A DNA stretch of 64,000 bases from Candidatus Eiseniibacteriota bacterium (GTDB lineage Bacteria; Eisenbacteria; RBG-16-71-46), in NCBI GenBank assembly GCA_025357055.1, contig JANXPZ010000125.1, positions 800-64,799 on the forward strand, read 5' to 3'. The position numbers and the translations under genes are program-made. Under the pieces are notes generated by a model. That model was given only the letters and a program-made list of their open reading frames with translations, had not been told where the DNA came from and did no database searches. Shown one piece after another: positions 3,543-46,853 of this stretch (positions are counted from its first letter, which is position 1; each line of letters opens with the position of its first letter).

Positions 3543-4751
3543 CTACGCCGGGTGGATCGGTGCTTCTTCGGCCCGCTTCGCCGGCAGCAGCCGGACGAGC
3601 ACGAAGAGGATCAGGAAGGGCGCGAGCAGCAGCCCGAGCGCGGTGACCAGACCCTCCAGCCCGGTCATCTCCATCTTGTAGGCCATCAGCCCGCGGAAAC
3701 TCTTCGAGAAGAGCTGCCCGCCGATGACCACGTTCCAGCGCGTGCTGAAGATGCCGAGCTGGATCAGGAGCGCCGCGGTGAAGTAGAGGAGCTTCCTCAG
3801 GTCCGGGTTCACGCGCCGGGTGCGCGCCGCCACCAGCACCGCCAGCGGCACGAGCATGCCGAGCAGGACCTGGAGGATGACCAGGTTCATGAAGAGCTTC
3901 ACCGAGATGAGCTGCGCCAGGATCTTCACCGACTCCTCGCTCTGGTAGAGGCGGTGGATGAAGTCGAGCGCCTCGAGCGAGAAGTCCACGACCACGGCGT
4001 AGAACAGGTACGAGGCCACCTTGTCCAGGCACTTCATGTCCAGCGGTTCGTTCCGCAGGGAGGTGATCACCATGTAGAGGAACAGCACCAGCGCGATGCC
4101 GGAGACGATGGCCGACATCAGGAACACGATGGGCATGAGCACGCTGCTCCACCAGGGATTGGCCTTGATGGAGCCGAAGATGAAGCCCACGTAGCCGTGG
4201 AGCAGGAAGGCCGACGGGATGCCCACGATGGTGATCGTCCGGACCGCCTTCCGGTCGAAGGCGACCGCCTGCTCGCTGATGTCGTTCGAGAACAGGGAGA
4301 GCGCGCGGTAGACCCAGCGGAGCGGGGGCTTGTGCTCGCGGCCCCACACCACCAGGTCGCGCCGGTACTCGAACCAGATCTCGAGCAGCAGGATGCCCAT
4401 CAGGTACCAGGCGTAGACGAACCCGAACATGGCCATCGCCGAGGAGAGGTGCGGCGCCAGGAAGATCTCGAACGAGCGCTCCATGTGCCCGAGGTGCAGG
4501 AGCAGCGGGAAGGGCGCCACGAGCAGGAAGGACAGCGCGGTCAGGAGGGCGAGCCGGTAGGTGGGCTGGACCTCCTTCACGTTGAAGACCTTGACCAGCG
4601 AGGCCAGGATGAACGCGCCGGCCACGAGCCCGGTGAGATACGGGTAGACCACGATCAGGATCGACCAGTGGATCTCGATCTCGTTCGGGTAGATGTACCC
4701 GATGACCTGCCCGAGCAGCTCCGTCAGGTTGGGCGGCACCTGGGCGATCAT
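3543..4751 (-). CDS. NrfD/PsrC-family polytopic membrane quinol-interacting subunit
   Basis: 402 aa with 8-10 predicted TM helices; NrfD/PsrC-like sequence (…HLGHMERSFEIFLAPHLSSAMAMFGFVYAWYLMG…); GGAG RBS before the ATG; ATGA overlap with the upstream FeS gene. Confidence 0.8.
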   Translation of the reverse strand: MIAQVPPNLTELLGQVIGYIYPNEIEIHWSILIVVYPYLTGLVAGAFILASLVKVFNVKEVQPTYRLALLTALSFLLVAPFPLLLHLGHMERSFEIFLAPHLSSAMAMFGFVYAWYLMGILLLEIWFEYRRDLVVWGREHKPPLRWVYRALSLFSNDISEQAVAFDRKAVRTITIVGIPSAFLLHGYVGFIFGSIKANPWWSSVLMPIVFLMSAIVSGIALVLFLYMVITSLRNEPLDMKCLDKVASYLFYAVVVDFSLEALDFIHRLYQSEESVKILAQLISVKLFMNLVILQVLLGMLVPLAVLVAARTRRVNPDLRKLLYFTAALLIQLGIFSTRWNVVIGGQLFSKSFRGLMAYKMEMTGLEGLVTALGLLLAPFLILFVLVRLLPAKRAEEAPIHPA

Positions 4752-5523
4752 CGCACCTCTCCGTCGAGCTGGGCGTAGTAGACCTTGGGCTCGGTGTTGA
4801 GCGCGGGCTTCAGCACGTTGATCTTGTTCATGCGCTGGAAGCGCACGAGGCGGCTCGCCTTGCTCCGGAGGTCACCGAAGACGCGCGCCTGGGTCGGGCA
4901 CACCTCGACGCACGCCGGCAGCAGCCCCTTGACCACGCGGTGGTAGCAGAAGGTGCACTTGTCCGCGGTGTTGGTGCGGTGATTGAAGAAGCGTGCCCCG
5001 TAGGGACAGGCCTGGATGCAGTAGCGGCAGCCGATGCAGCGCGTGCTGTCCACCAGCACCACGCCGTCCGCGGTCGTGAAGGTGGCGCCGACCGGGCAGA
5101 CCTGCACGCAGGGCGCGTGCGCGCAGTGGTTGCAGAGCTTCGGCACGAAGAAGGAGCGCAGCACCTCGCGCTCATCCTGCGCCTTCCGCTCCCCGCGCGG
5201 ATTCACGCTGATGCACTCGACCTCGGTCTCGCCGCTCTGCTTCACGGTGTAGCGCTCGACCCAGGTGCGGAAGAAGAACGGCTCGGGGGGCACGTCGTTC
5301 TCGGCCTTGCACGCCTCCGCGCAGCGGTTGCAGCCGATGCACTTCTCGACTTCGATCCCCATCCCGTACCAGTGGTCGCGGGGCTCGTAGCCGGGAGTGG
5401 GCGAACCGGTCGCCCCGGCGGCGCCCGCGACCGACGCCTCCGCCTGGCGCATCAGGGCCTGGAGCACGGCGGCGGCCGGGATGAAGGCGATGGCCCCCTT
5501 CTTGAGGAACTCGCGCTTGTTCA
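4748..5523 (-). CDS. 4Fe-4S ferredoxin-type iron-sulfur subunit (NrfC/PsrB/HybA family), Tat-like signal
   Basis: MNKREFLKKGAIAFIPAAA... followed by four Cys clusters (CIGCNRCAEAC, CNHCAHAPCVQVCP, CIGCRYCIQACP, CTFC...CVEVCP); the track ORF 4748..6079 is actually two genes; ATGA overlaps on both sides. Confidence 0.85.
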
Positions 5524-31405: not shown

Positions 31406-32893
31406 ATGAGCATGCTCCTCACCACGCTCGCCTTCGTCGCGCTGACGGCGCTCATCGCCTGGTGGCACGTGCGCGGCTCGGGCACCGTCGCGTCGGCTCG
31501 CGACCTGAGGCCGTGTCCGCGCTGCCGCACCCGCTTCGAAGCCGGCGCCTCGTTGTGTCCGGGCTGTGGCGTGCCGCGGCAGGCGTACGAGCTGGTGAGT
31601 GCCCCCGTCGTGGGGGCCGCGGCGCCGCTCGAGGCGGGCGTGAAGCCGCACCCCATCGTCCGCACCAACCTGTGCGTGGGCTGCGGCACCTGCGTGGCGG
31701 CCTGCCCCGAGCCCGGGGCGATCCGGCTGCAGGACCACCGCGCGTTCGTGGACCTCGACGTCTGTGTGCGGCACGGGACCTGCGCGGTGGCCTGCCCGAT
31801 GAACGCCATCGTGATGGCGGCGGGCGCGGCGGTGCAGCGCATCGAGGTGCCGGAGCTGGACGCGAACTTCCAGAGCAACGTGCCCGGGCTCTATGTGGTG
31901 GGCGAGTTGGGCGGGCGCGGGCTCATCAAGAACGCGATCAACGAGGGCCGCATCGCCATCGAGCACGTCGCCCGCGTGCTGGCGGCGGGCCGCCCGCTGC
32001 GGATGGGAGACGCCGGACCCGGGGGCGGTGAGCCGGACTCCCCCGGGCCCTACGACGTGCTCGTGGTGGGCTCGGGCCCCGCGGGGATCTCGGCCGCGCT
32101 CGAGGCGAAGCGCCTGGGGCTGCGCTGTGTCGTGATCGAGCAGGGCACGATCTCGGACACGATCCGCAAGTACCCGCGCCGCAAGCTCCTGCTCGCCGAG
32201 CCCTCGCGCGTCCAGCTCTACGGTGGATTGTGGGTGGCCGATGCCTCGAAGGAGGAGCTGCTGTCGGTGTGGGAGACGATCATCGCGCGCGCCGGCCTGC
32301 GCGTGCGGACCGGCGAGCGGGTCGAGTCGCTGGAGAGCGACGGTGTGCTGTTCCGCGTGCGCACCCCGGGGACCGAGTACCAGGCCCGCAAGGTGCTGCT
32401 GGCGATGGGCCGGCGCGGCACTCCGCGGCGGCTGGGCGTGCCGGGCGAGGAGCTGGAGAAGGCCCTCTATGACATCGTCGAGATGGAGGCGTTCGCGGGT
32501 TGCCGCATGCTGGTGGTGGGCGGCGGCGACAGCGCGATCGAATCGGCGCTCGGGCTCGCCAACCAGCCGGACACCTCGGTCACGCTCTCCTACCGCGGCC
32601 AGGAGTTCCCGCGGCTGAAGGAGCGCAACCGCGAGAAGCTCGAGGCCGCGCTCCAGGCCTCCGGCGAAGGCGGCGCGGGCCGCGTGGAACTGCTGCTCGG
32701 CAGCCGCGTGATCGAGATCCGCCCCGGCGTGGTGGCGCTCGACTGCGCGGGCATGCCCCGCCTGCTCCCCAACGACTACGTGGTCGTCCGCATCGGTGGC
32801 GAGCCGCCGTACCCGTTCATCGAGCGTTGCGGCGTGCGGATCGTGACCAAGGAGATCGCGATCGACACCGGTGCGGAAAGGCGGGCCGGGTGA
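31406..32893 (+). CDS. Membrane-anchored 2x[4Fe-4S] ferredoxin-domain + FAD/NAD(P)-binding (thioredoxin-reductase-like) oxidoreductase
   Basis: N-terminal TM helix; Zn-ribbon-like CPRC...CPGC; CVGCGTCVAACP and CVRHGTCAVACP ferredoxin motifs; DVLVVGSGPAGISAALEA (FAD GxGxxG) and MLVVGGGDSAIESALGLA (NAD(P)). Confidence 0.7.
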   Translation: MSMLLTTLAFVALTALIAWWHVRGSGTVASARDLRPCPRCRTRFEAGASLCPGCGVPRQAYELVSAPVVGAAAPLEAGVKPHPIVRTNLCVGCGTCVAACPEPGAIRLQDHRAFVDLDVCVRHGTCAVACPMNAIVMAAGAAVQRIEVPELDANFQSNVPGLYVVGELGGRGLIKNAINEGRIAIEHVARVLAAGRPLRMGDAGPGGGEPDSPGPYDVLVVGSGPAGISAALEAKRLGLRCVVIEQGTISDTIRKYPRRKLLLAEPSRVQLYGGLWVADASKEELLSVWETIIARAGLRVRTGERVESLESDGVLFRVRTPGTEYQARKVLLAMGRRGTPRRLGVPGEELEKALYDIVEMEAFAGCRMLVVGGGDSAIESALGLANQPDTSVTLSYRGQEFPRLKERNREKLEAALQASGEGGAGRVELLLGSRVIEIRPGVVALDCAGMPRLLPNDYVVVRIGGEPPYPFIERCGVRIVTKEIAIDTGAERRAG

Positions 32894-34683
32894 GGGCGGC
32901 GCTCCCCCCCATTCTGATCATGCTCTCGCTCTCCGTCGCCCTTCCCGCCCGCGCGCAACTGTCACCGGGGCCGCTCAGCGAGGCGCACCGCTCGCTCGAG
33001 GGCGTGACCCAGTGCTTCCAGTGCCACGAGAGCGGCGCGGGGGCCGCGGACGCCAAGTGTCTCGCCTGCCACACCGAGATCGGCTGGCTGCGCGCCCGGA
33101 GCCGCGGGCTCCACGGCCCCGGGCAGTCCACGCCCTGCGTGAAGTGCCATCCCGAGCACGCGGGAGTCGCCTTCCAGCTGGTGCGCTGGGACGAGGGGGC
33201 CGCCGAGCGGTTCGACCACCGGCGCGCGGGGTTCGTACTCGAGGGCCGGCACGGGAAGCTCAAGTGCGCCGAGTGCCATCAGCCGCGCTTCCAGAAGTCG
33301 GGCGCCGCCGCGCTCATCCGCAAGCGTGACCGCGCCGCGAGCTGGCTCGGGCTCGAGCGCTCGTGCACCTCGTGCCACGCGGACCCCCACCAGGGCCAGC
33401 TCGGCGCCACCTGCACGGATTGCCACGGGCCACAGGCGTGGAAGCCCGCGACCGGCTTCGACCACGCGAAGACCGCCTACCCGCTCACCGGTCTGCACGC
33501 GAAGCTCGAGTGCGCGAAGTGCCACCTGTCCCCGCGGCTCGAGCCCGTGACCGACGCACAGGGGAAGCTCGTGCCACGCTGGAAGCCGCTCCCCCACGCC
33601 GACTGCGCCTCCTGCCACAAGGACCCGCATGCCGGGCGCTTCCCGGGCGCCTGCGCGAAGTGCCACACGACGGAGGGCTTCCGGGTGCTCGACGCGAAGA
33701 ACTTCGACCACGAGCGCACGCGCTACCCGCTGCGCGGCCGCCACGCCACGGTCGCCTGTGCGAAGTGCCACGATCCGAAACTGGCCCGGGGGCTCAAGCC
33801 CGCCTTCGACCGCTGCGACCGCTGCCATCGCGACGCCCACGCCGGGCTCGCCACGCTGGCCGGCCGGCCCGCCGACTGCGCCGCCTGCCACGCGGTGCAG
33901 GGCTGGAGGCCTTCGACCTACAGCGTGAGCGCGCACCAGTCCGCGGCCTATCCGCTCGAGGGGCGCCACGCCCTGGTGCCCTGCGCGAAGTGTCATCCGC
34001 AGGGGGCGGACTCGCTCGCCGCCAGGCTGGGCAGCGCCCGCGTGCAGCTGCGGCCCGCCCGTGCGCGCTGCCTCGACTGCCACACCGACCCGCACCGCGG
34101 CCGCTTCGAGGCGGGCGGCGCCCGGGCCAAGGCCACGAGCTGCAGGACCTGTCACACGCTGGACGGCTTCCGGCCCACCCTGGTGGACGCCGCCGCGCAC
34201 GCGCGACTGGGCTACCCGCTGAAGGGCGCGCACCGGGCCGTGCCCTGCCAGGGTTGCCACGCCGAATTGAAGGTCGCACCGCCCGCGGCCGGCGCAACGG
34301 TCCCGGCCGGCGCCAGCGGCGGGGGCCCCGCCGCGAGCAGCCCGGGGCGCACGCTCCTCTTCGCCGATGCGGGCTCCGCCTGTGACGGTTGTCACACGTC
34401 TCCGCACGGCGACCAGTTCAAGGGCCGCCGCGCCCGGGTGAAGGGTGGCCCGGCGGGCGATGCCTGTGACGCCTGCCACGGGATCGAGAGCTTCACGCCC
34501 GCGAATCGTTTCGATCACGAGAAGGACTCGGCGTTCCGGCTCTCCGGAGCGCACGCGAAAGTCAGGTGCGAGGGCTGTCACAAGTCCTCGCGGGATGCGC
34601 AGGGCCGGTCGTTCGTGGTCTACAAGCCCACGCCCGCCCGGTGCGAGGACTGCCATGTCCACCGGCCGCAGGGGGCGTCATGA
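32890..34683 (+). CDS. 20-heme c-type cytochrome (repeated CXXCH...H modules)
   Basis: GTG start overlapping the upstream stop (GTGA) gives a signal peptide VRAALPPILIMLSLSVALPARA; 20 CXXCH with recurring F(D)H...YPL.G.H spacing motifs. Confidence 0.75.
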   Translation: MRAALPPILIMLSLSVALPARAQLSPGPLSEAHRSLEGVTQCFQCHESGAGAADAKCLACHTEIGWLRARSRGLHGPGQSTPCVKCHPEHAGVAFQLVRWDEGAAERFDHRRAGFVLEGRHGKLKCAECHQPRFQKSGAAALIRKRDRAASWLGLERSCTSCHADPHQGQLGATCTDCHGPQAWKPATGFDHAKTAYPLTGLHAKLECAKCHLSPRLEPVTDAQGKLVPRWKPLPHADCASCHKDPHAGRFPGACAKCHTTEGFRVLDAKNFDHERTRYPLRGRHATVACAKCHDPKLARGLKPAFDRCDRCHRDAHAGLATLAGRPADCAACHAVQGWRPSTYSVSAHQSAAYPLEGRHALVPCAKCHPQGADSLAARLGSARVQLRPARARCLDCHTDPHRGRFEAGGARAKATSCRTCHTLDGFRPTLVDAAAHARLGYPLKGAHRAVPCQGCHAELKVAPPAAGATVPAGASGGGPAASSPGRTLLFADAGSACDGCHTSPHGDQFKGRRARVKGGPAGDACDACHGIESFTPANRFDHEKDSAFRLSGAHAKVRCEGCHKSSRDAQGRSFVVYKPTPARCEDCHVHRPQGAS

Positions 34684-34723
34684 GGAAGGAACGCACGAGA
34701 TCCATCCAGTCGGAAGGCTGGTC

Positions 34724-36166
34724 ATGAAGCGCCCCGGCCTGCCGCTGCGGATCGGGGGCATGCGCCTTGCGGCGACGCTGCTGACGGTGCTTCCACTCGC
34801 CGCGCTCGGACTGGTCGCCTTCGCGGCCGAGAAGCCCGCCGCGGTGGAGCCCGAGTACCCGCACGGGAACTTCCAGGGCGACTGCTCGGAGTGCCACGGC
34901 GACGAGGGGTGGAAGCCGGCGCGCATCAGCCGGAAGTTCGACCACGCGAAGCGCTCGGGATTCGCCCTGAACGGGGCGCACGCCTCGCTCCAGTGCGCGG
35001 GCTGTCACGGCACGCTCGACTTCAGCCAGCAGCGCAAGGTCTGCGCCTCGTGCCACCAGGACCCGCACCTCGGCGAGTTCGGGCCCGACTGCGCCCGTTG
35101 CCACACCCCGCGCAGCTTCCTCGACCGCGCGGGCATGGTGCGCATGCACCAGTTGACGCGTTTTCCGCTGGCGGGCGCGCACGCGGGGCTGGATTGCGAG
35201 GGCTGCCACCGCCTGACGTCCCAGGGGCAGCTGCGCTTCAGCTCGACCGGGACGGAGTGCTACTCGTGTCACCGGGAGGACTTCGTGGGCACGACGAGCC
35301 CCGCGCACGTCGCCGGCGGCTTTCCGACCGATTGCATGAACTGCCACACGCCGCTGGCCTGGCGGCCCACGCGCTTCGTCCACACGGGCGCCACGGAATG
35401 CTACTCGTGCCACCGGTCCAACTACGAGCGCACGACGGCCCCGGCCCACGTCGCGGCGGGCTTCCCGACCGCCTGCGCGACCTGCCACACGACCCGGAGC
35501 TGGCTGCCCTCGACGTTCGACCACGCCGCCACGCCGTTCGCGCTGACCGGGGCGCACGTCCAGACGCCGTGCGTGAGCTGCCACGGGAGTCCCTGGCAGA
35601 ACACGCTGGCCACCGACTGCTACTCGTGCCACCGGCCGGCCTACGACGCGACGGCCGCCCCGGCGCACGTCACGGGCGGGATCCCGACCACCTGCACGAG
35701 CTGCCATACCACCGTGGCCTGGCAGCCCGCGACCTTCGCCCACAACGCCACGGCGTTCCCGCTGACCGGGGCGCACGTCCAGACGCCGTGCGTGAGCTGC
35801 CACGGGAGTCCCTGGCAGAACACGCTGGCCACCGACTGCTATTCGTGCCACCGCCCGGCCTACGACGCGACCACGGACCCCGCCCATGCCGCCGCGGGAT
35901 TCCCGACCACCTGCGCCACCTGTCACAGCACGAGCGCGTGGACCGGGGCGACGTTCGACCACACCTGGTTCCCGATCACCTCCGGCCGACATTCGGGGCT
36001 CACATGCTCGACCTGCCACGTCGTCCCCACGAGCTATGCCTCGTTCAGCTGCCTGAGCGGCTGTCATTCGCAGGGCGACACGGATGGCCGCCATTCCAAC
36101 GTCTCCGGCTACCGGTACGACAGCGCCTCCTGCTATTCGTGCCACCCACGCGGGTCGGCCGGTTGA
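34724..36166 (+). CDS. 17-heme c-type cytochrome with an internally repeated 73-aa module
   Basis: GGAAGG RBS 9 nt upstream of the ATG; signal/anchor MKRPGLPLRIGGMRLAATLLTVLPLAALGLVAFA; about 17 CXXCH; repeated unit PAHV.GG.PT.C..CHTT..W.P.TF.H.AT.F.LTGAHVQTPCVSCHGSPWQNTLATDCYSCHRPAYDAT. Confidence 0.8.
   Translation: MKRPGLPLRIGGMRLAATLLTVLPLAALGLVAFAAEKPAAVEPEYPHGNFQGDCSECHGDEGWKPARISRKFDHAKRSGFALNGAHASLQCAGCHGTLDFSQQRKVCASCHQDPHLGEFGPDCARCHTPRSFLDRAGMVRMHQLTRFPLAGAHAGLDCEGCHRLTSQGQLRFSSTGTECYSCHREDFVGTTSPAHVAGGFPTDCMNCHTPLAWRPTRFVHTGATECYSCHRSNYERTTAPAHVAAGFPTACATCHTTRSWLPSTFDHAATPFALTGAHVQTPCVSCHGSPWQNTLATDCYSCHRPAYDATAAPAHVTGGIPTTCTSCHTTVAWQPATFAHNATAFPLTGAHVQTPCVSCHGSPWQNTLATDCYSCHRPAYDATTDPAHAAAGFPTTCATCHSTSAWTGATFDHTWFPITSGRHSGLTCSTCHVVPTSYASFSCLSGCHSQGDTDGRHSNVSGYRYDSASCYSCHPRGSAG
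35531..35872 (+). repeat. Tandem 219-bp-period duplication inside the 17-heme cytochrome gene with a homogenised core of about 111 bp (2 mismatches)
   Basis: 35552-35652 and 35761-35871 are near-identical (81 bp identical, then 2 mismatches in 30); the flanking parts of each repeat unit are diverged. Confidence 0.85.
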
Positions 36167-37875
36167 GCGCGCGCCGCAGGCGGAGTCCGTCACGGCCGCT
36201 CCATCCCGCGGGGGCCGGCCCCGCGCTGACGCTGGCCGCTGCGCTCGTCGTGCTGCTGGTGGCCTGCGGCTCCGCGGCGCAGGCCGCGCAGGTGGAAGCC
36301 CACGTCACCTACCTCGCCGGCGGATCGGTCTACGTGGACGCCGGGCGTCTGGAGGGTCTGCGCGAGGGCGACTCGCTGGTCGTGGTGCGAGGTGGAAAGA
36401 CCATCGCCTGGCTGCGGGCCTCGTTCCTCTCCTCTCACCGGACCTCGTGCGACACCCTGGGCACGCTCGCGCCCATCCGGGTGGGCGACCTGGCGGGCTT
36501 CGTCACGAATGTCCCCGGGCCCTCCGCTGCGGGAGGTGACACCACCGCCGCGGTGACCGGCGCCCCGCCGGCGACTGCGTCTCCCGCTCCCGGCGCGCCC
36601 GCGCCCCACCCGGTTCCGGGTGTGCCCTTGAGTGGCGCCACGCCTGCGGCCCCACCGCCACGTGCCGCGCGGCGCGGCGGGGCGTTGCGCGGACGCATCG
36701 GGGCGCGCTTCCTCACCGTACAGACCGACCACGGTGGCCGCCTCACGCAGCCGGCGCTCGACCTGCGGCTCGACGGCGTGAGCCTGGCGGGGACGCCGCT
36801 CGACCTGGCCGTGGACTTCCGGGGGCGCCGCGTCACCCAGAGCATTCCCGGGCGGGTCACGCTGAACACCGATCGCGGCCTGTTCTACCGTTTCGCGCTC
36901 GCCACTCACGACCTGGCCGGGCACTACCGGTTCACGGTCGGGCGGCAGCTCTCGCCCTCGCTCGCGCCCGTGAACCTGTTCGACGGCGCGCTGGTCGAGC
37001 GCCGCGGCACGCGCTGGAACGCCGGTCTCTTCAGCGGCGCGCAGCCCGAGCCCATGCGGCTCGGCATGTCGGGTGCGATCGTGCAGGGCGGCGGGTACCT
37101 CGAGTGGCACCAGTCGGCGGGCGCGGCGCGGCGCTGGACCGTCAGCGGCGGCGCCATCAGTTCGTACGACCACGGCAACACCAACCGCGATTTCGGCTTC
37201 CTGCAGGGCTTCTACCTGGACCGCACGCTGAGCGCGACGCTCTCGCAGGAGGTGGACCTGAACCGGGGCTGGAAGCGCGATCTGGGTCAGCCTGCGTTCC
37301 AGGCGACCGGCACGTTCCTCACCACGAACGTGCGGGTCGGCTCCGCGCTCTCCCTGCGTGGCGGCTACGACAACCGGCGCAACGTCTGGCTCTATCGCGA
37401 CCGCATCACGCCCGAGAACCTGTTCGACGACCGTTACCGGCAGGGAGGCTGGGGCGGCGCGTTGCTCGATCTGGCACACCACGTCCGGCTCACGGGGGAC
37501 GCGCGCACCAGCTCGATCGCCGGGGCGCGGCGCCAGAACGGCTGGACCGGCGGCCTCGAGGGCTATCGCTTCACCCCGCTCAACCTCGCGTTGCGCGCGC
37601 GCTACAGCCGGCTCACGGGCAGTGGCCTGGAGAACTCACTGGTCTCGTACGGGGCCGGCCTCGATCCGCTGGGTTGGGCGCACGTCGAAGTGACCGGGGG
37701 GCAGCGCACCACCCGGGAGGCGCTGGCCGGGGTCCAGGAACGCTCGCAGTGGCTCGGCGCCGACCTCGACCTGACGCTGCCGGGCCGCGCCTACCTGAAC
37801 GTCTCGTACGAGGGGGATTCCGGTGGCATCAGCCCGATGCGACAGGCCTACTTCGGACTGAGCTGGAGGTTCTGA
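36163..37875 (+). CDS. Outer-membrane beta-barrel protein (porin-like), possibly a lipoprotein; start tentative
   Basis: TTG start overlapping the cytochrome stop (TTGA) gives RRRR + hydrophobic + LVAC (lipobox-like) / AQA signal; Pro/Ala-rich linker; long alternating amphipathic region ending ...AYFGLSWRF (terminal aromatic typical of OM barrels). Confidence 0.55.
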   Translation: MSARRRRSPSRPLHPAGAGPALTLAAALVVLLVACGSAAQAAQVEAHVTYLAGGSVYVDAGRLEGLREGDSLVVVRGGKTIAWLRASFLSSHRTSCDTLGTLAPIRVGDLAGFVTNVPGPSAAGGDTTAAVTGAPPATASPAPGAPAPHPVPGVPLSGATPAAPPPRAARRGGALRGRIGARFLTVQTDHGGRLTQPALDLRLDGVSLAGTPLDLAVDFRGRRVTQSIPGRVTLNTDRGLFYRFALATHDLAGHYRFTVGRQLSPSLAPVNLFDGALVERRGTRWNAGLFSGAQPEPMRLGMSGAIVQGGGYLEWHQSAGAARRWTVSGGAISSYDHGNTNRDFGFLQGFYLDRTLSATLSQEVDLNRGWKRDLGQPAFQATGTFLTTNVRVGSALSLRGGYDNRRNVWLYRDRITPENLFDDRYRQGGWGGALLDLAHHVRLTGDARTSSIAGARRQNGWTGGLEGYRFTPLNLALRARYSRLTGSGLENSLVSYGAGLDPLGWAHVEVTGGQRTTREALAGVQERSQWLGADLDLTLPGRAYLNVSYEGDSGGISPMRQAYFGLSWRF

Positions 37876-43084: not shown

Positions 43085-46000
43085 TCAACGCATGCGCGCG
43101 ATCTTGCGGCTCATGGTCCGGCCCTCGGCGTCGAGGCGCAGGAAGTAGATCCCGGCGCTCGACGGCCGGCCGTCCTGGTCAAGGCCGTCCCACGAGACGC
43201 GGTGCTCGCCCGCGGCCTGCGCGCCGTGCACCAGCAGGCGCACCCGGCGGCCCTGCACGTCGAGCACGTCGAGCGAGGCGTCGCCCGGGCGCGTGAGCGT
43301 GAACGCGATCGAAGTCGAGTGGAGCATCGGGTTGGGGTGCGCATCGGCGAGCATGAGCGTGGCGGGCTGCACGCGGGAGGCCACGTCCACCCACGCGCCC
43401 GGCACGCGGAAGTCGGTCTCGAGGCGGCCGCTGCGCGTCGGCGAGCGCCACGGACCGTTCGGGAAATACACCGACCGGGCGAGGGTGCGCATCTGCCACG
43501 CGTACGGCACACCGCTGGTCAGGCCGGTCGCGCCCGCGAGGAGGCTCGCCATGCTGCCGTAGGCGCCCGGTGCCCCGGTCGCGACCCACCCGGTGATGCC
43601 GCTTGCGCCCGGAGCCGGCAGGCCGACCACCGGCGTGACGCGGTACTGCAGGCGCACCCTGGTGCGGCCCGCGGCCGAGCGGCCGTGCGAGAGGAGGAAG
43701 AGGCCGCCCGGATCGCTCTGGCAACCCGGCTGGATCAGGTGCGCGGGCGCGGTGCTGCGATAGCCGACGCCGAGCTGGAGCGAGCCCGAGCCCTGCGCGC
43801 CATAGCGCACCTGGCAGAGGCCCTGGCGGCCGAGCACATTGCTGTAGCCCGGCTCGCCGAAGATCAGATCGCTCCAGCCGTCGCTGTTCACATCGCCCGC
43901 GTTGGCGAGCGAGTGCCCCATGTTCGCGAACGCCGAGCCGCCGGTCGCGCTCCAGAACGCCGGTGCGCCGGCCGGCAGCGGGCCGCGGAAGACGTGGGCG
44001 GCGCCCTGGTCCTGCGGGCCGCCCTGGTCCTGGAAGACGGCGCCGACGAGCACGTCGCTGAGGCCGTCGCCGTCGACGTCGCCCGCCGAGGACACGGCCG
44101 AGCCGAAGCCGCCGTACGCCTCGCCGCCGTACTGGGTCCACAGCAGGCCCAGCGAACCGTCCGCGATCCCGATGAAGACGCGCGCCGCGCCCTCGCCGCT
44201 GAGGGTGTTGGTGGCCGAGGGAGCGCCCACGATGATGTCGCTGAGCCCGTCGCCGTTCACGTCGCCCGCGCCGGCGACCGAAGCGCCGAAGCGCCAGGAC
44301 GACGCCCTCGCGGAGATCGTGAACGTCGTCGAGGGGCCCGCGGTTGAGCCGTAAGCCACCACCACGTGGCCGGCATCGGGGAAGATCGCCCCCGCCTTGC
44401 CGGGCGTATCGAAGTCGGGCGCGCCGATGACGACGTCGGAGAAGCCGTCGCCGTTGACGTCGCCCGCGCCGGCCACCGAGCTGCCCAGGTGCGCGTCGGC
44501 CTGGCCGCCGCTGGCCGACCACATCGGCGTGGTGCTGAGCCCGCCCGGGCCGCCGCGGTAGACGTAGACACGGCCCTCGCCCGGGAGCGGCGAGGTGGGA
44601 TCGACGCCCATGGGCGCGCCCACGATCACGTCCGCATAGCCGTCGCCGTCCACGTCGCCGGCCGGGGCGACCGAGCCGCCGAACTGGCTGCCGGCGCTGA
44701 AGCCGGTGAGGGTGACGTTCGGGGCGGAGGGCAGCCCGCCCGGGCCTCCGTACCAGATGCGAGCCTGTCCCACGCCGCCCGCGGCGGTGTGGGCGCCGAT
44801 GATGAGGTCGGCGTAGCCATCGCCGTTGATGTCACCGGCCGAGGCGACCGAGACGCCGAGTTGATCGCCCGAGGCCCCAAAGGTGTACCAGGTCGCGGTC
44901 GGCACCAGCCCGGTCGCGCTCCCACGGAACAACTGGATGAGCCCGTTGTTTGACTCACCCGGTGAGATGTAGTTGTACCAGGTGGGCTCGCCCACCAGCA
45001 CGTCGTCGTAGCCGTCGCCGTTGACGTCGCCGGCCGAGGCCACCGACCAGCCCAGGTTCGGGTTCTCGATCGCGGTCTGGGTGATGCTCCAGTTCGAGTA
45101 CGACGAAGGCGGCGAGCCGACCCCGTAGTGCACCAGCACGCGCCCCTCGGAGGACTCGCCATTGGTGAAGTACGGGTCGCCCACGAGCAGGTCGCTGAGG
45201 CCGTCGCCGTTCACGTCACCGGCGGTCATCACGTGGGTCGAGCCGGCCGGGTATCCAAGCAGTTGCTGGATGATGAGCGTGGTGCCCACGCTCTGGGCCA
45301 GGTCCACGCGCGAGCTCTCGCCGATCAGCAGGTCGGGCCGGCCGTCGCCGTTCACGTCGCCGGCGGGTGTCAGCGTGATGCCGAACTGCGCGTTCGCGAC
45401 TCCCGAGGACTCCCACCAGAGCAGGTTCGCGGTCGCGGTGTCCACGCCCGCGGCGGAGCCCCGAAAGACGAACGCCATGCCGGATGCGGTCCCGTAGGTG
45501 TTGTCGGCCGGAGCGCCGACCGCGACGTCGGCGTAGCCGTCGCCATTGAGGTCGCCCGCCGGCGCGACGGTGGCGCCGAACTCCCCGTACTGGTGGTGAC
45601 CGAGGAGCGTGGTGCTGCCGACGAGGGTGCCGAGGTTCGAGAAGCCGGGAGTCAGTGGCAGCCCGGCGGCGGAGCCGTAGATCACGTAGGCCTTGCCCAC
45701 CGGGTCGAAGCTGAACGTCGCTTCGGCCAGTGGGGCACCCACGATGATGTCGTCGAAGCCGTCGGCGTTGACGTCCCCCGCGCCTGCGACCGACGAGCCG
45801 AGGTGGGCGTTGAGGCCGGTGGCCGTGCAGCCGGTCAAAAACCAGTTGTTCGTCATGCTCACGCCCGTGGCCGAGCCATAGAGCACCTCGGCCACGCCAC
45901 TGCCGGGCGATGGCGTGCAGGGCCAGAACCCGGCCGCGCTCGGCATCCCGAAGATGAGGTCGCCGAAGCCGTCACCGTTCACGTCCCCGGCCGGCGCGAC

Positions 46001-46633
46001 GTTGAAACCGTAGAGATTGCTGCCGAAGGACGAGAGCGAGTTGAAGTTCACCAGGTCGAGGCCGCCCGCGGCGCCGAAGTACACGCGCGCCGATCCGTTG
46101 AGATACCAGAACAACACGATGTCGCCCAGGTTGTCGCCGTTCACGTCCCCCGCAGGGGCGACCTGGGCGCCCGGCGGCAGGTCGACGACCGGGTAGCCGG
46201 ACGCCAGCACCGGGCCGCTCGCGCTGCCGAGGTAGAGGTAGAGCGCGCTGTGGTAGGAGTTCACGTCCCCGATCGCGACGAAGTCGCTGATGCCGTCGCC
46301 GTCCACGTCACCGGCCGGGGTCAGGCTCATGCCGAGCATGCGGTTGGCGACATTGGACTCGGACGACCAACCCACGGTCGCCGTCAGCAACGCCGGCTGC
46401 GCCACGCGGTCGGGGACGGCGATCCCCCGCGGCGCGGCGGGCGGGGCGCCTGCACGCGTGATGATGCCGAGGTCGGGCAGGAACGACTGCAGCGCGGCGG
46501 GCGGCGGCGCGGGGACCGGGGTCATGAACGAGTCGAGGTCCGGCAGGCCGGCTGCGGCGGCGCTCGCCAGGGTGAGCGCCAGGGCGACGAGGGCCCCGCC
46601 GAGGAGGCGGGATGGACGGGTGGCGTGGCGCAT
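43085..46633 (-). CDS. Giant secreted FG-GAP/VCBS-repeat protein (about 1180 aa) with T9SS-type C-terminal domain
   Basis: More than 15 repeats of ..AGDVNGDG(Y/F)(A/S)D(V/L)..; C-terminus ...PNPMLHSTSIAFTLTRPGDASLDVLDVQGRRVRLL...GIYFLRLDAEGRTMSRKIARMR, homologous to the C-terminus of 40184..42816. Confidence 0.7.
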   Translation of the reverse strand: MRHATRPSRLLGGALVALALTLASAAAAGLPDLDSFMTPVPAPPPAALQSFLPDLGIITRAGAPPAAPRGIAVPDRVAQPALLTATVGWSSESNVANRMLGMSLTPAGDVDGDGISDFVAIGDVNSYHSALYLYLGSASGPVLASGYPVVDLPPGAQVAPAGDVNGDNLGDIVLFWYLNGSARVYFGAAGGLDLVNFNSLSSFGSNLYGFNVAPAGDVNGDGFGDLIFGMPSAAGFWPCTPSPGSGVAEVLYGSATGVSMTNNWFLTGCTATGLNAHLGSSVAGAGDVNADGFDDIIVGAPLAEATFSFDPVGKAYVIYGSAAGLPLTPGFSNLGTLVGSTTLLGHHQYGEFGATVAPAGDLNGDGYADVAVGAPADNTYGTASGMAFVFRGSAAGVDTATANLLWWESSGVANAQFGITLTPAGDVNGDGRPDLLIGESSRVDLAQSVGTTLIIQQLLGYPAGSTHVMTAGDVNGDGLSDLLVGDPYFTNGESSEGRVLVHYGVGSPPSSYSNWSITQTAIENPNLGWSVASAGDVNGDGYDDVLVGEPTWYNYISPGESNNGLIQLFRGSATGLVPTATWYTFGASGDQLGVSVASAGDINGDGYADLIIGAHTAAGGVGQARIWYGGPGGLPSAPNVTLTGFSAGSQFGGSVAPAGDVDGDGYADVIVGAPMGVDPTSPLPGEGRVYVYRGGPGGLSTTPMWSASGGQADAHLGSSVAGAGDVNGDGFSDVVIGAPDFDTPGKAGAIFPDAGHVVVAYGSTAGPSTTFTISARASSWRFGASVAGAGDVNGDGLSDIIVGAPSATNTLSGEGAARVFIGIADGSLGLLWTQYGGEAYGGFGSAVSSAGDVDGDGLSDVLVGAVFQDQGGPQDQGAAHVFRGPLPAGAPAFWSATGGSAFANMGHSLANAGDVNSDGWSDLIFGEPGYSNVLGRQGLCQVRYGAQGSGSLQLGVGYRSTAPAHLIQPGCQSDPGGLFLLSHGRSAAGRTRVRLQYRVTPVVGLPAPGASGITGWVATGAPGAYGSMASLLAGATGLTSGVPYAWQMRTLARSVYFPNGPWRSPTRSGRLETDFRVPGAWVDVASRVQPATLMLADAHPNPMLHSTSIAFTLTRPGDASLDVLDVQGRRVRLLVHGAQAAGEHRVSWDGLDQDGRPSSAGIYFLRLDAEGRTMSRKIARMR

Positions 46634-46853
46634 GTGGGGCCTCCGAGTCGTGGGGGGACGACGCGGCCGCACGTCCATTCAACCAGTCCCTGCGGATAGG
46701 AATCGCCTATCCAGGCGCGGACCCTAGCACGGTGAAGTCGGGCCGGACAATGAATATTTGACCGGTCCTGTGCTCAAACGTGACGAGTGGATCGCTGGCC
46801 CATCGCCACCCCCCGGGGCGGGAGTCTCCCCGGCCGATTTCAGCCGTCCGGTC

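What the first reader, a model, noticed from the sequence alone, without database searches (positions are those of the whole stretch)
35531..35872. Internally homogenised repeat inside the 17-heme cytochrome gene: about 111 bp nearly identical at a 219-bp period
The gene encodes at least four copies of a 73-aa two-heme module. Most copies are diverged at the DNA level, but two adjacent copies share a 111-bp core with only 2 mismatches (35552-35652 versus 35761-35871). Their flanks differ, which points to recent gene conversion or unequal crossover between modules. Such repeats drive module-number variation in multiheme cytochromes and are a common cause of assembly collapse. This core also explains the identical antisense ORFs 35422..35613 and 35641..35832 in the six-frame track.
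Basis: seen in the sequence. Interest (0 to 1): 0.5.

Follow-up and report, generated by a model that had tools for sequence, protein, structure and literature searches.

The report
Recombined heme-module repeat in a cytochrome gene
Two neighbouring three-heme modules of a multiheme cytochrome gene share a 112-base stretch that recombination made nearly identical; relatives carry one to four such modules, so this is a real but ordinary case of repeats evolving together.

Summary
Window 35541-35652 and 35760-35871 (offset 219 bp) differ at 2 of 112 bases, both synonymous. The left flank is 76% identical and the right flank 60-64%. In 100,000 permutations no tract exceeded 84 bp. Codon bias cannot explain it: 2 synonymous differences were seen against 15.2 +/- 2.7 expected.

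The gene (34724-36166, +) encodes a secreted c-type cytochrome with 17 CXXCH motifs and one conserved CX3-4CH. Its closest relatives are in Candidatus Eisenbacteria. The 73-aa period holds three hemes, not two.

Orthologues carry 1, 2, 3 or 4 copies of this module (13 to 23 CXXCH). In the first half of the module, copies group by genome (W_m1+W_m2 bootstrap 87%). In the second half they group by position across genomes. That discordance is the signature of concerted evolution by gene conversion or unequal crossover.

Three diagnostic sites suggest the terminal module overwrote the internal one. The right end of the tract lies where homology between the modules drops.

The errors are a coordinate typo, "two-heme", and antisense ORFs that match only in their first 24 residues. 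Assembly or polishing artefacts cannot be tested without reads. The mechanism is well known, so interest is low to moderate.

The parts
34724..36166 (+). Multiheme c-type cytochrome gene (480 aa from ATG 34724; alternative in-frame ATGs at 34655 and 34760). It has 17 CXXCH motifs plus one CX3CH. The N-terminus looks like a Sec signal peptide (MKRPG...LGLVAFA|AEK, judged by eye).
   Evidence: ORF and motif count. Pfam Cytochrome_C7 63.3 bits (cutoff 24.8), Cytochrom_c3_2, Cytochrom_CIII, Paired_CXXCH_1. Orthologues at 59-80% identity in local BLASTP (68-87% in the MAFFT alignment).
35390..35931 (+). Tandem array, period 219 bp (73 aa), 2.5 copies, 84% matches overall.
   Evidence: TRF; the repeat finder families D1 and D2.
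35162..35398 (+). Older, diverged module m0 (79 aa): one-heme part V0 (FPLAGAH..CEGCH) plus two-heme unit U1 (CYSCH..CMNCH).
   Evidence: Translation; motif spacing of 125 aa to the next module in W-clade proteins.
35399..35536 (+). Extra two-heme unit U2 (46 aa, CYSCH..CATCH). It forms the left flank of the homogenised tract and is 76% identical to its +219 partner. One such unit (47 alignment columns, placed at U1) is missing from orthologue L009/P0064.
35537..35755 (+). Module m1 (73 aa, three CXXCH: CVSCH, CYSCH, CTSCH; three further His in LTGAH, PAH and FAH). This is the internal-type module.
   Evidence: Orthologues of its second half are 91-92% identical in L008, L009 and L035.
35756..35974 (+). 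Module m2 (73 aa, three CXXCH: CVSCH, CYSCH, CATCH). This is the terminal-type module.
   Evidence: Orthologues of its second half are 87-92% identical in L009, L034, L008 and L033.
35541..35652 (+). Homogenised core, copy 1 (112 bp). It encodes LTGAHVQTPCVSCHGSPWQNTLATDCYSCHRPAYDAT and is the likely acceptor of the conversion.
   Evidence: Mosaic of class-diagnostic sites: internal-type at 35540 and from 35658 on, terminal-type at 35558, 35559 and 35568.
35760..35871 (+). Homogenised core, copy 2 (112 bp), 110/112 identical to copy 1. It is the likely donor.
36050..36067 (+). CLSGCH, an atypical CX3CH motif that may bind an 18th heme. It is conserved as CX3CH or CX4CH in all nine close orthologues.
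35422..35613 (-). Antisense ORF (63 aa). It is a by-product of the repeat in 73% G+C DNA, not a gene.
   Evidence: its first 24 residues are identical to those of ORF 35641-35832 and the rest differs.
35641..35832 (-). Second antisense ORF (63 aa), same explanation.
32890..34683 (+). Upstream gene for a cytochrome with 20 CXXCH motifs (start GTG 32890 or ATG 32920). It belongs to the conserved cluster.
   Evidence: same gene order in L033, L034 and the P0004 contig.
31406..32893 (+). FAD/NAD(P)-binding oxidoreductase with a 4Fe-4S dicluster domain, the first enzyme-like gene of the conserved cluster.
   Evidence: synteny.
36163..37875 (+). Downstream gene (about 570 aa; the TTG start overlaps the cytochrome stop as TTGA). 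It has no Pfam family and ends in ...LSWRF. It may be an outer-membrane barrel, but this is not shown.
   Evidence: Orthologues of 559-570 aa without Pfam follow the cytochrome in L033, L037 and the P0004 contig; the genes after it in L034, L035 and L036 are cut by the contig end. Single-sequence AF2 failed (pLDDT 33).

Best explanation
The gene encodes a secreted multiheme cytochrome whose middle part is a tandem array of 73-aa modules. Each module carries three CXXCH motifs and three further conserved histidines. The array evolves in concert through homologous recombination between misaligned or neighbouring modules. Unequal crossover adds or removes whole modules, three hemes at a time. Short non-reciprocal exchanges (gene conversion), or a duplication followed by a deletion, overwrite part of one module with the sequence of its neighbour. 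In this genome the last such event copied about 112 bp from the terminal module (m2) onto the internal module (m1). This stretch covers the one-heme part plus the first 12 codons of the two-heme part. The tract ends on the right where m1 and m2 fall to about 62% identity. That point is the edge of usable homology, and the distal half of the terminal module is never homogenised in any genome examined. Shown here: the tract, its statistical significance, synonymous-site homogenisation, phylogenetic discordance and copy-number variation among relatives. Inferred: the recombination mechanism, the donor/acceptor polarity (three sites only), bis-His ligation, and the idea that changing module number lengthens or shortens a linear heme chain.
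For: The tract is 112 bp with 2 mismatches, against flanks of 76% and 60-64% identity, and 0 of 100,000 permutations reach it. There are 2 synonymous codon differences of 36, against 15.2 +/- 2.7 expected. In codons 1-37 of the module, W_m1 and W_m2 are 97% identical; the best orthologue pairs are 93-95%, and the gene-wide W-L009 baseline is 93.6% and 88.9%. In codons 38-73, W_m1 and W_m2 are 62% identical, yet each has orthologues at 91-92%. NJ bootstrap for the first half gives W_m1+W_m2 87%, L036 pair 99%, L033 m3+m4 98% and L002 pair 98%. For the second half it gives W_m1+W_m2 0% and a clade of terminal modules 74%. A G at 35545/35764 is shared by both W copies and by no other module. Variants shared only by the copies within one genome also occur in L034, L036 and L033. 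Constraint is not the cause, because paralogue identity in the same segment ranges from 68-77% (L037) to 98% (L001, L033). Module number is 1 (L011, L015), 2 (window, L002, L009, L035, L036, P0047), 3 (L008, L034, L037, P0004) or 4 (L001, L033), giving 13 to 23 CXXCH. The right ends of near-identical tracts recur at module positions 113-117 in W, L001, L009, L033, L034, L035 and L036. Other tract positions differ between genomes, which argues for independent events. Polarity rests. As an internal control, the FG-GAP gene at 43085-46678 has 13-14 tandem repeats at 60-79% identity and no homogenised tract.
Against: No reads are available, so an assembly or polishing effect cannot be ruled out. 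The margin between paralogue distance (3 differences in 111) and orthologue distance (6-8) is small, and the 87% bootstrap rests on a few sites. Polarity rests on three diagnostic sites defined from three genomes. No same-species genome was found, so copy-number variation is shown between related lineages, not within a population. Gene conversion cannot be told apart from duplication followed by deletion through unequal crossover. The structural claim (a linear heme wire with independent modules) is not supported by a confident model (pLDDT 59.7, pTM 0.25).
Confidence: 0.8

Rival explanations
1. One recent tandem duplication of a 219-bp unit, with no later exchange. The identity would simply be what remains of a young duplicate.
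For: The array has period 219. A duplication in the phase [U-distal, V, U-proximal] would place the right boundary at 35652/35871 without any conversion. L001 and L034 show whole-module near-identity, which fits fresh duplications.
Against: A fresh duplication gives 219 bp of identity, not 112. The other half of the same unit (35435-35540 against its +219 partner) is only about 77% identical. The internal module is old: its second half has orthologues at 77-92% in every relative that carries an internal module except L002, including the distant L037. The whole unit therefore cannot be young.
Confidence: 0.07
2. Purifying selection on a conserved peptide, together with strong G+C-rich codon bias, keeps the two DNA copies alike without any recombination.
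For: The encoded peptide (LTGAH..CxxCHGSPWQNTLATDCYSCHRPAYDAT) is highly conserved in all close orthologues. This segment is 85-95% identical at the DNA level between many genomes. The window is 72-73% G+C.
Against: Local codon usage predicts 15.2 +/- 2.7 synonymous codon differences and 2 are seen. The same segment is only 68-77% identical between paralogues in L037, 82% in L002 and 85% in L035. Paralogues are closer than orthologues and share genome-private variants.
Confidence: 0.03
3. Assembly or consensus-polishing artefact. Reads from one copy were placed on the other, or a strain mixture was merged, homogenising or mis-joining the repeat. The true locus would then have different sequence or copy number.
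For: The window closely resembles metagenome-derived sequence, and its proteins are not on record elsewhere, so nothing independent confirms this exact sequence. Relatives such as L001 carry about 500 bp of near-identical repeat that short reads would collapse.
Against: The reading frame is intact through both copies, and the architecture (U, V-U, V-U, C-terminal domain) matches four independently assembled two-module orthologues (L009, L035, L036, P0047). The exact run is 82 bp inside a 112-bp tract with two mismatches and clearly different flanks. That is shorter than usual read lengths and the largest assembly k-mers (general knowledge). The same pattern, with a right boundary at module positions 113-117, recurs in contigs from different samples and in a single-record 3.6-Mb chromosome assembly (L001, OY970178.1).
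Confidence: 0.08

Closest known systems
Concerted evolution of tandem repeats by gene conversion and unequal crossover (the classical model for rDNA, satellite arrays and repeat-containing bacterial surface proteins; my own knowledge)
   Same: Copies within a genome are more alike than orthologous copies between genomes. Copy number varies between lineages. Tracts are mosaic with sharp boundaries. Units at the edge of the array escape homogenisation: here the distal half of the terminal module is never converted.
   Different: The array is very short (2-4 units) and lies inside a redox protein, where each unit carries three covalently bound hemes. Each gain or loss therefore changes cofactor number by three. 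I found no paper describing this for heme modules within one cytochrome gene. That search covers open-access text only.
[quoted passage not shown]
   Same: The protein is a chain of repeated units of about 73-75 residues with three hemes each. It matches Pfam Cytochrome_C7 (63.3 bits). Growth by module duplication is the same idea.
   Different: It is not a sequence relative. It does not match NCBIfam TIGR04257 nanowire_3heme at E <= 0.01. PDB sequence searches return no GSU1996 entry. The module motif differs (F-x-L-T-G-A-H ... CxxCH-G-x-P-W ... D-C-Y-S-C-H ... P-A-H ... CxxCH ... W-x-P-x-x-F-x-H). The lineage is Eisenbacteria, with wider relatives in Acidobacteriota and Gemmatimonadota.
'Grafting and pruning' model of multiheme cytochrome evolution (PMC9250108; extended in bioRxiv 10.1101/2025.05.29.656830)
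   Same: Whole heme modules are gained and lost within a family. Here there are 13, 15, 17, 20 and 23 CXXCH among close orthologues and up to 34 in the wider family.
   Different: That model was drawn from deep comparisons between families. Here the DNA still shows the recombination footprints of recent events between adjacent modules.
Porin-cytochrome (Pcc/Mtr-type) extracellular electron-transfer gene clusters
   Same: Two large multiheme cytochrome genes lie next to each other, followed by a translationally coupled gene of about 570 aa for an unannotated protein ending in an aromatic residue. Gene order is conserved in relatives.
   Different: No barrel is demonstrated (no Pfam hit, AF2 failed). 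The DmsE/MtrA model scores 33.9 bits against a cutoff of 192.2. This cytochrome has no lipoprotein cysteine. The cluster begins with an FAD/4Fe-4S oxidoreductase.

Membership tests
Multiheme c-type cytochromes of the c3/c7 type (Pfam PF14522 Cytochrome_C7, PF14537, PF02085) | Score above the curated Pfam gathering threshold | tested here: met
   PF14522 63.3 bits (cutoff 24.8), PF14537 53.5 (25), PF02085 46.9 (22.9).
Multiheme c-type cytochromes of the c3/c7 type (Pfam PF14522 Cytochrome_C7, PF14537, PF02085) | Multiple CXXCH heme-attachment motifs with about one further His per heme (bis-His ligation) | tested here: met
   There are 17 CXXCH motifs. Each 73-aa module has three CXXCH plus three His (LTGAH, PAH, FxH) that are invariant in the 10-sequence alignment and invariant or >=90% conserved in the 40-sequence one (H278, H315, H340, H351, H388, H413). 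Actual ligation was not tested.
Multiheme c-type cytochromes of the c3/c7 type (Pfam PF14522 Cytochrome_C7, PF14537, PF02085) | Export signal, since heme attachment takes place outside the cytoplasm | not testable with these tools
   The N-terminus MKRPGLPLRIGGMRLAATLLTVLPLAALGLVAFA|AEK looks like a Sec signal by eye. No predictor was available.
GSU1996-type c7-polymer 'nanowire' cytochromes (NCBIfam TIGR04257 nanowire_3heme) | Match to the triheme nanowire domain model | tested here: not met
   No TIGR04257 hit at E <= 0.01 for this protein. The upstream cytochrome scores 16.1 bits against a cutoff of 40.
GSU1996-type c7-polymer 'nanowire' cytochromes (NCBIfam TIGR04257 nanowire_3heme) | Sequence or fold similarity to the solved GSU1996 structure | tested here: not met
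   PDB sequence searches return only NrfB, a sixteen-heme cytochrome and weaker hits. Foldseek on the low-confidence model finds nothing (E > 5), so the fold part is uninformative.
Tandem repeat under concerted evolution (gene conversion / unequal crossover) | An identical tract longer than expected from the overall divergence of the copies (Sawyer-type run test) | tested here: met
   A 112-bp tract against a maximum of 84 in 100,000 permutations.
Tandem repeat under concerted evolution (gene conversion / unequal crossover) | Synonymous sites are homogenised, not only the protein | tested here: met
   2 of 36 against 15.2 +/- 2.7 expected. In the right flank 10 of 18 same-amino-acid codons differ.
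Tandem repeat under concerted evolution (gene conversion / unequal crossover) | Paralogues group by genome in the converted segment and by position in the unconverted segment | tested here: met
   Bootstrap 87% against 0% for W_m1+W_m2; terminal-module clade 0% against 74%.
Tandem repeat under concerted evolution (gene conversion / unequal crossover) | Copy-number variation among relatives | tested here: met
   1 to 4 modules in 14 orthologues including the window (12 with DNA). Variation within a species or population was not testable because no same-species sequence was found.
Porin-cytochrome (Mtr/Pcc) conduit | MtrA/DmsE-family decaheme or OmaB-like periplasmic cytochrome | tested here: not met
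   TIGR03508 scores 33.9 bits against a cutoff of 192.2.
Porin-cytochrome (Mtr/Pcc) conduit | Adjacent outer-membrane beta-barrel gene | tested here: inconclusive
   The downstream 570-aa protein has no Pfam family. Single-sequence AF2 gave pLDDT 33. The only hints are the C-terminal ...LSWRF and some predicted hairpins.

The most novel reading that the evidence does not exclude
Module number may be a rapidly adjustable trait in this cytochrome and its wider family (3-10 tandem 73-aa triheme modules, 15-34 CXXCH, in Eisenbacteria, Acidobacteriota, Gemmatimonadota and others). On this reading the DNA core that stays nearly identical between modules serves as a recombination substrate. Lineages could then lengthen or shorten an electron-conducting heme chain in steps of three hemes, for example to match envelope thickness or partner distance. 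That would mean selection for evolvability rather than passive concerted evolution.
Probability: 0.1. Interest if true: 0.55.

Novelty: new member of a known kind. Interest (0 to 1): 0.3.

Why it matters
The finding gives a dated, DNA-level view of how multiheme cytochromes gain and lose heme modules, which has mostly been inferred from deep protein comparisons. Here the recombination footprints are still readable, and close relatives differ by exactly three hemes per step.

In practice, heme counts and lengths of such genes taken from short-read metagenome assemblies should be treated with care. Relatives such as L001 carry several hundred bases of near-identical repeat.

Orthologue clustering by length or heme number, as used in cytochrome surveys, will split this family artificially.

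It does not reveal a new mechanism. Concerted evolution of tandem repeats is textbook.

Tried and rejected
- Exact-sequence look-ups of three window proteins, meant to find the source contig or a same-species relative, found nothing on record.
- Single-sequence AF2 of the downstream 570-aa protein, meant to test for a beta-barrel, failed with pLDDT 33.
- AF2 of the cytochrome with a 40-sequence alignment gave pLDDT 59.7 and pTM 0.25. Foldseek against the PDB gave no match with E < 5. I therefore make no structural claim.
- PDB sequence searches with the protein and with a profile gave only marginal hits, the best being NrfB at E = 5e-4.
- Literature searches for multiheme plus gene conversion or concerted evolution found nothing relevant. 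The Geobacter mutation-rate paper and the D. soudanensis paper do not deal with intragenic module exchange.
- DNA could not be retrieved for P0004 and P0047, so only their proteins were used.
- Rejected: selection plus codon bias as the cause, a single young 219-bp duplication, and real antisense genes. The antisense ORFs merely mirror the repeat in high-G+C DNA.
Full report
**1. The observation**

Comparing the window with itself at an offset of 219 bp shows that 35541-35652 and 35760-35871 are identical at 110 of 112 positions.
- The mismatches are 35623 C / 35842 T (TAC/TAT, Tyr) and 35635 G / 35854 C (CGG/CGC, Arg). The longest exact run is 82 bp.
- To the left, 35393-35540 is 76.4% identical to its partner. 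To the right, 35653-35752 is 60% identical.
- I shuffled the 70 mismatches of the 351-bp homologous span 100,000 times. No tract with 2 or fewer mismatches exceeded 84 bp.
- Tandem Repeats Finder reports one array at 35390-35931, period 219, 2.5 copies, 84% matches.
- This is the only repeat of at least 45 bp above 95% identity in the 64-kb window.
- The FG-GAP gene at 43085-46678 (-) has 13-14 tandem repeats that are only 60-79% alike. It serves as an internal control showing that tandem protein repeats in this genome are not homogenised as a rule.

**2. The gene and the module**

The ORF 34445-36166 (+) most plausibly starts at ATG 34724. This gives 480 aa beginning MKRPGLPLRIGGMRLAATLL...AFA|AEK, which looks like a signal peptide by eye.
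It also has CLSGCH at 36050-36067, which is conserved as CX3CH or CX4CH in all nine close orthologues.
- Pfam assigns Cytochrome_C7, Cytochrom_c3_2, Cytochrom_CIII and Paired_CXXCH_1.
- The 73-aa period contains three CXXCH motifs, not two. A one-heme part V (F-x-L-T-G-A-H...CxxCH-G-S-P-W) is followed by a two-heme part U (D-C-Y-S-C-H...P-A-H...G-x-P-T-x-CxxCH...W-x-P-x-x-F-x-H).
- Three further histidines per module are invariant or nearly so. This fits bis-His ligation, which is an inference.
- The layout is V0-U1 (35162-35398), U2 (35399-35536), m1 = V1-U3 (35537-35755), m2 = V2-U4 (35756-35974), then a C-terminal domain.
- The core encodes LTGAHVQTPCVSCHGSPWQNTLATDCYSCHRPAYDAT, that is V plus the first 12 codons of U.
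- The two antisense ORFs (35422-35613 and 35641-35832) exist. They share only their first 24 residues, so they are a by-product of the repeat.

**3. Not selection or codon bias**

Of the 36 codons in the core that encode the same amino acid, 2 differ. Drawing codons independently from local usage predicts 15.2 +/- 2.7 differences, and no simulation out of 200,000 gave 2 or fewer. In the right flank 10 of 18 such codons differ. In orthologues the same segment ranges from 68-77% identity between paralogues (L037) through 82-85% (L002, L035) to 98% (L001 m3/m4, L033 m3/m4). The DNA is therefore free to diverge.

**4. Relatives**

The nearest sequences come from Candidatus Eisenbacteria MAGs and from sediment and soil metagenomes. 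I obtained DNA for eleven orthologues.
- Number of 73-aa V-U modules after U2:

| Modules | Sequences |
|---|---|
| 1 | L011, L015 |
| 2 | window, L002, L009, L035, L036, P0047 |
| 3 | L008, L034, L037, P0004 |
| 4 | L001, L033 |

- L001 is a single 3.6-Mb chromosome record, OY970178.1.
- These counts give 13, 15, 17, 20 or 23 CXXCH.
- One 47-aa two-heme unit is missing from L009 (a 47-column gap in the alignment).
- Among the 120 best homologues the same module, with 72-75-aa spacing, is repeated 3-10 times, giving 15-34 CXXCH. The window's protein is a short member of a large, widespread and uncharacterised repeat family.

**5. Concerted evolution**

I split each module into region a (codons 1-37) and region b (codons 38-73).
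- In region b, W_m1 and W_m2 are 62% identical. W_m1 has orthologues at 91-92% (L008_m2, L009_m1, L035_m1), and W_m2 has orthologues at 87-92% (L009_m2, L034_m3, L033_m5, L008_m4). The internal and terminal module types are therefore old and orthologous across genomes.
- In region a, W_m1 and W_m2 are 97% identical. That is closer than either is to any orthologue (93-95%), and closer than the W-L009 baseline in non-repeat parts of the gene (93.6% and 88.9%).
- NJ bootstrap for region a: W_m1+W_m2 87%, L036 pair 99%, L033 m3+m4 98%, L002 pair 98%, L034 m1+m2 87%. For region b: W_m1+W_m2 0%, all terminal modules together 74%.
- Both W copies share a G at 35545/35764 that no other module has. L034, L036 and L033 each have their own variants shared between their copies.
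- Near-identical tracts sit at different places in different genomes, but their right ends recur at module positions 113-117. L037 and L002 have none. Exchange is therefore episodic and independent in each lineage.

**6. Mechanism**

A single fresh tandem duplication would leave 219 bp of identity. Here only 112 bp are alike, and the rest of the unit is about 77% identical, so an exchange after the old duplication is required.
- Either a short gene-conversion tract or a duplication followed by a deletion through unequal crossover within region a gives the same product. The sequence cannot tell these apart.
- The right boundary lies where m1 and m2 drop to about 62% identity. This is the edge of the array's usable homology, where heteroduplex extension would be expected to stop (inference).
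- The distal half of the terminal module escapes homogenisation in every genome examined, which is the classical edge effect of tandem arrays.
- Polarity: I used sites fixed in the un-homogenised first-module class (L008_m2, L001_m1, L033_m2) and absent from terminal modules. At these sites W_m1 is internal-type at 35540 and from 35658 onward, but terminal-type at 35558, 35559 and 35568. m2 was therefore probably the donor and m1 the acceptor. This rests on three sites.

**7. Context**

The cluster is conserved in relatives. It comprises, in order:
- a hypothetical gene;
- an FAD/4Fe-4S oxidoreductase (31406-32893);
- a 20-CXXCH cytochrome (32890/32920-34683);
- this cytochrome;
- a gene of about 570 aa with no Pfam family, whose TTG start overlaps the cytochrome's stop (36163-37875).

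This resembles a porin-cytochrome conduit, but the membership tests fail or are inconclusive. DmsE/MtrA scores 33.9 bits against a cutoff of 192, and the barrel is not shown.

**8. Comparison with what is known**
- Functionally the protein resembles the GSU1996-type chain of c7-like triheme domains, which is thought to have arisen by duplication and concatenation of modules (PMC11492766).
- It is not a member of that family. It has no TIGR04257 match and no PDB relative.
- Module gain and loss fits the 'grafting and pruning' view (PMC9250108).
- I found no open-access paper describing gene conversion between heme modules inside one cytochrome gene. The process itself is textbook.

**9. Caveats**
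- There are no reads, so assembly or polishing artefacts remain possible. I put this at about 8%.
- Against an artefact: the frame is intact, four independently assembled two-module orthologues share the architecture, and the exact run is only 82 bp with distinct flanks.
- The structure models were too poor to use.

**10. Verdict**

The finding is a clean but ordinary example of concerted evolution and copy-number change in a tandem heme-module array. Interest 0.3; novelty: new member of a known kind.

Noticed in passing
window 36050-36067: CLSGCH is an atypical CX3CH motif near the C-terminus. All nine close orthologues have it as CX3CH or CX4CH (SC[LTFV][ST]-(G/S)-GCH). It may bind an 18th heme with non-standard spacing.
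   Followed up: partly
window 43085-46678 (-): This 1197-aa protein has 14 FG-GAP repeats and a C-terminal FlgD-Ig / Por_Secre_tail-like end. Its 13 DNA repeats (period about 141-222 bp) are only 60-79% alike, with no homogenised tract. I used it as an internal control.
   Followed up: partly
window 36163-37875 (+): A conserved gene of about 570 aa sits directly after the cytochrome, with start and stop overlapping as TTGA. It has no Pfam family, a signal-like N-terminus containing LLVAC, and a C-terminal ...LSWRF. It may be the outer-membrane partner of the two cytochromes. The AF2 single-sequence model was unusable.
   Followed up: partly
window 35258-35398 versus L009 (gene 3639-5231): The nearest relative L009/P0064 (and L010) lacks one 47-aa two-heme unit that the window has. 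The smaller 141-bp sub-unit therefore also varies in number, probably by the same kind of unequal exchange.
   Followed up: partly
L001 7691-8187 (OY970178.1, Ca. Eisenbacteria chromosome): The four-module orthologue has about 500 bp of near-identity between successive modules (tracts of 84, 82, 127 and 191 bp, each with 2 or fewer mismatches). This is far more homogenised than the window, and short reads would be likely to collapse it.
   Followed up: partly
proteins P0002-P0120: The wider family has very regular arrays of 5-10 triheme modules of 72-75 aa (24-34 CXXCH). The named members come from Terriglobales, Acidoferrales, Gemmatimonadales, Calditrichaeota and Paludibacter MAGs. None carries a functional name. 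It appears to be a large uncharacterised family of repeat cytochromes.
   Followed up: no
window 31406-32893 and 32890-34683: The FAD/4Fe-4S oxidoreductase gene overlaps the probable GTG start of the 20-heme cytochrome gene by 4 bp (GTGA). The same gene order occurs in L033 and in the P0004 contig. This suggests a cytoplasmic or membrane-side electron donor coupled to the cytochrome pair.
   Followed up: no
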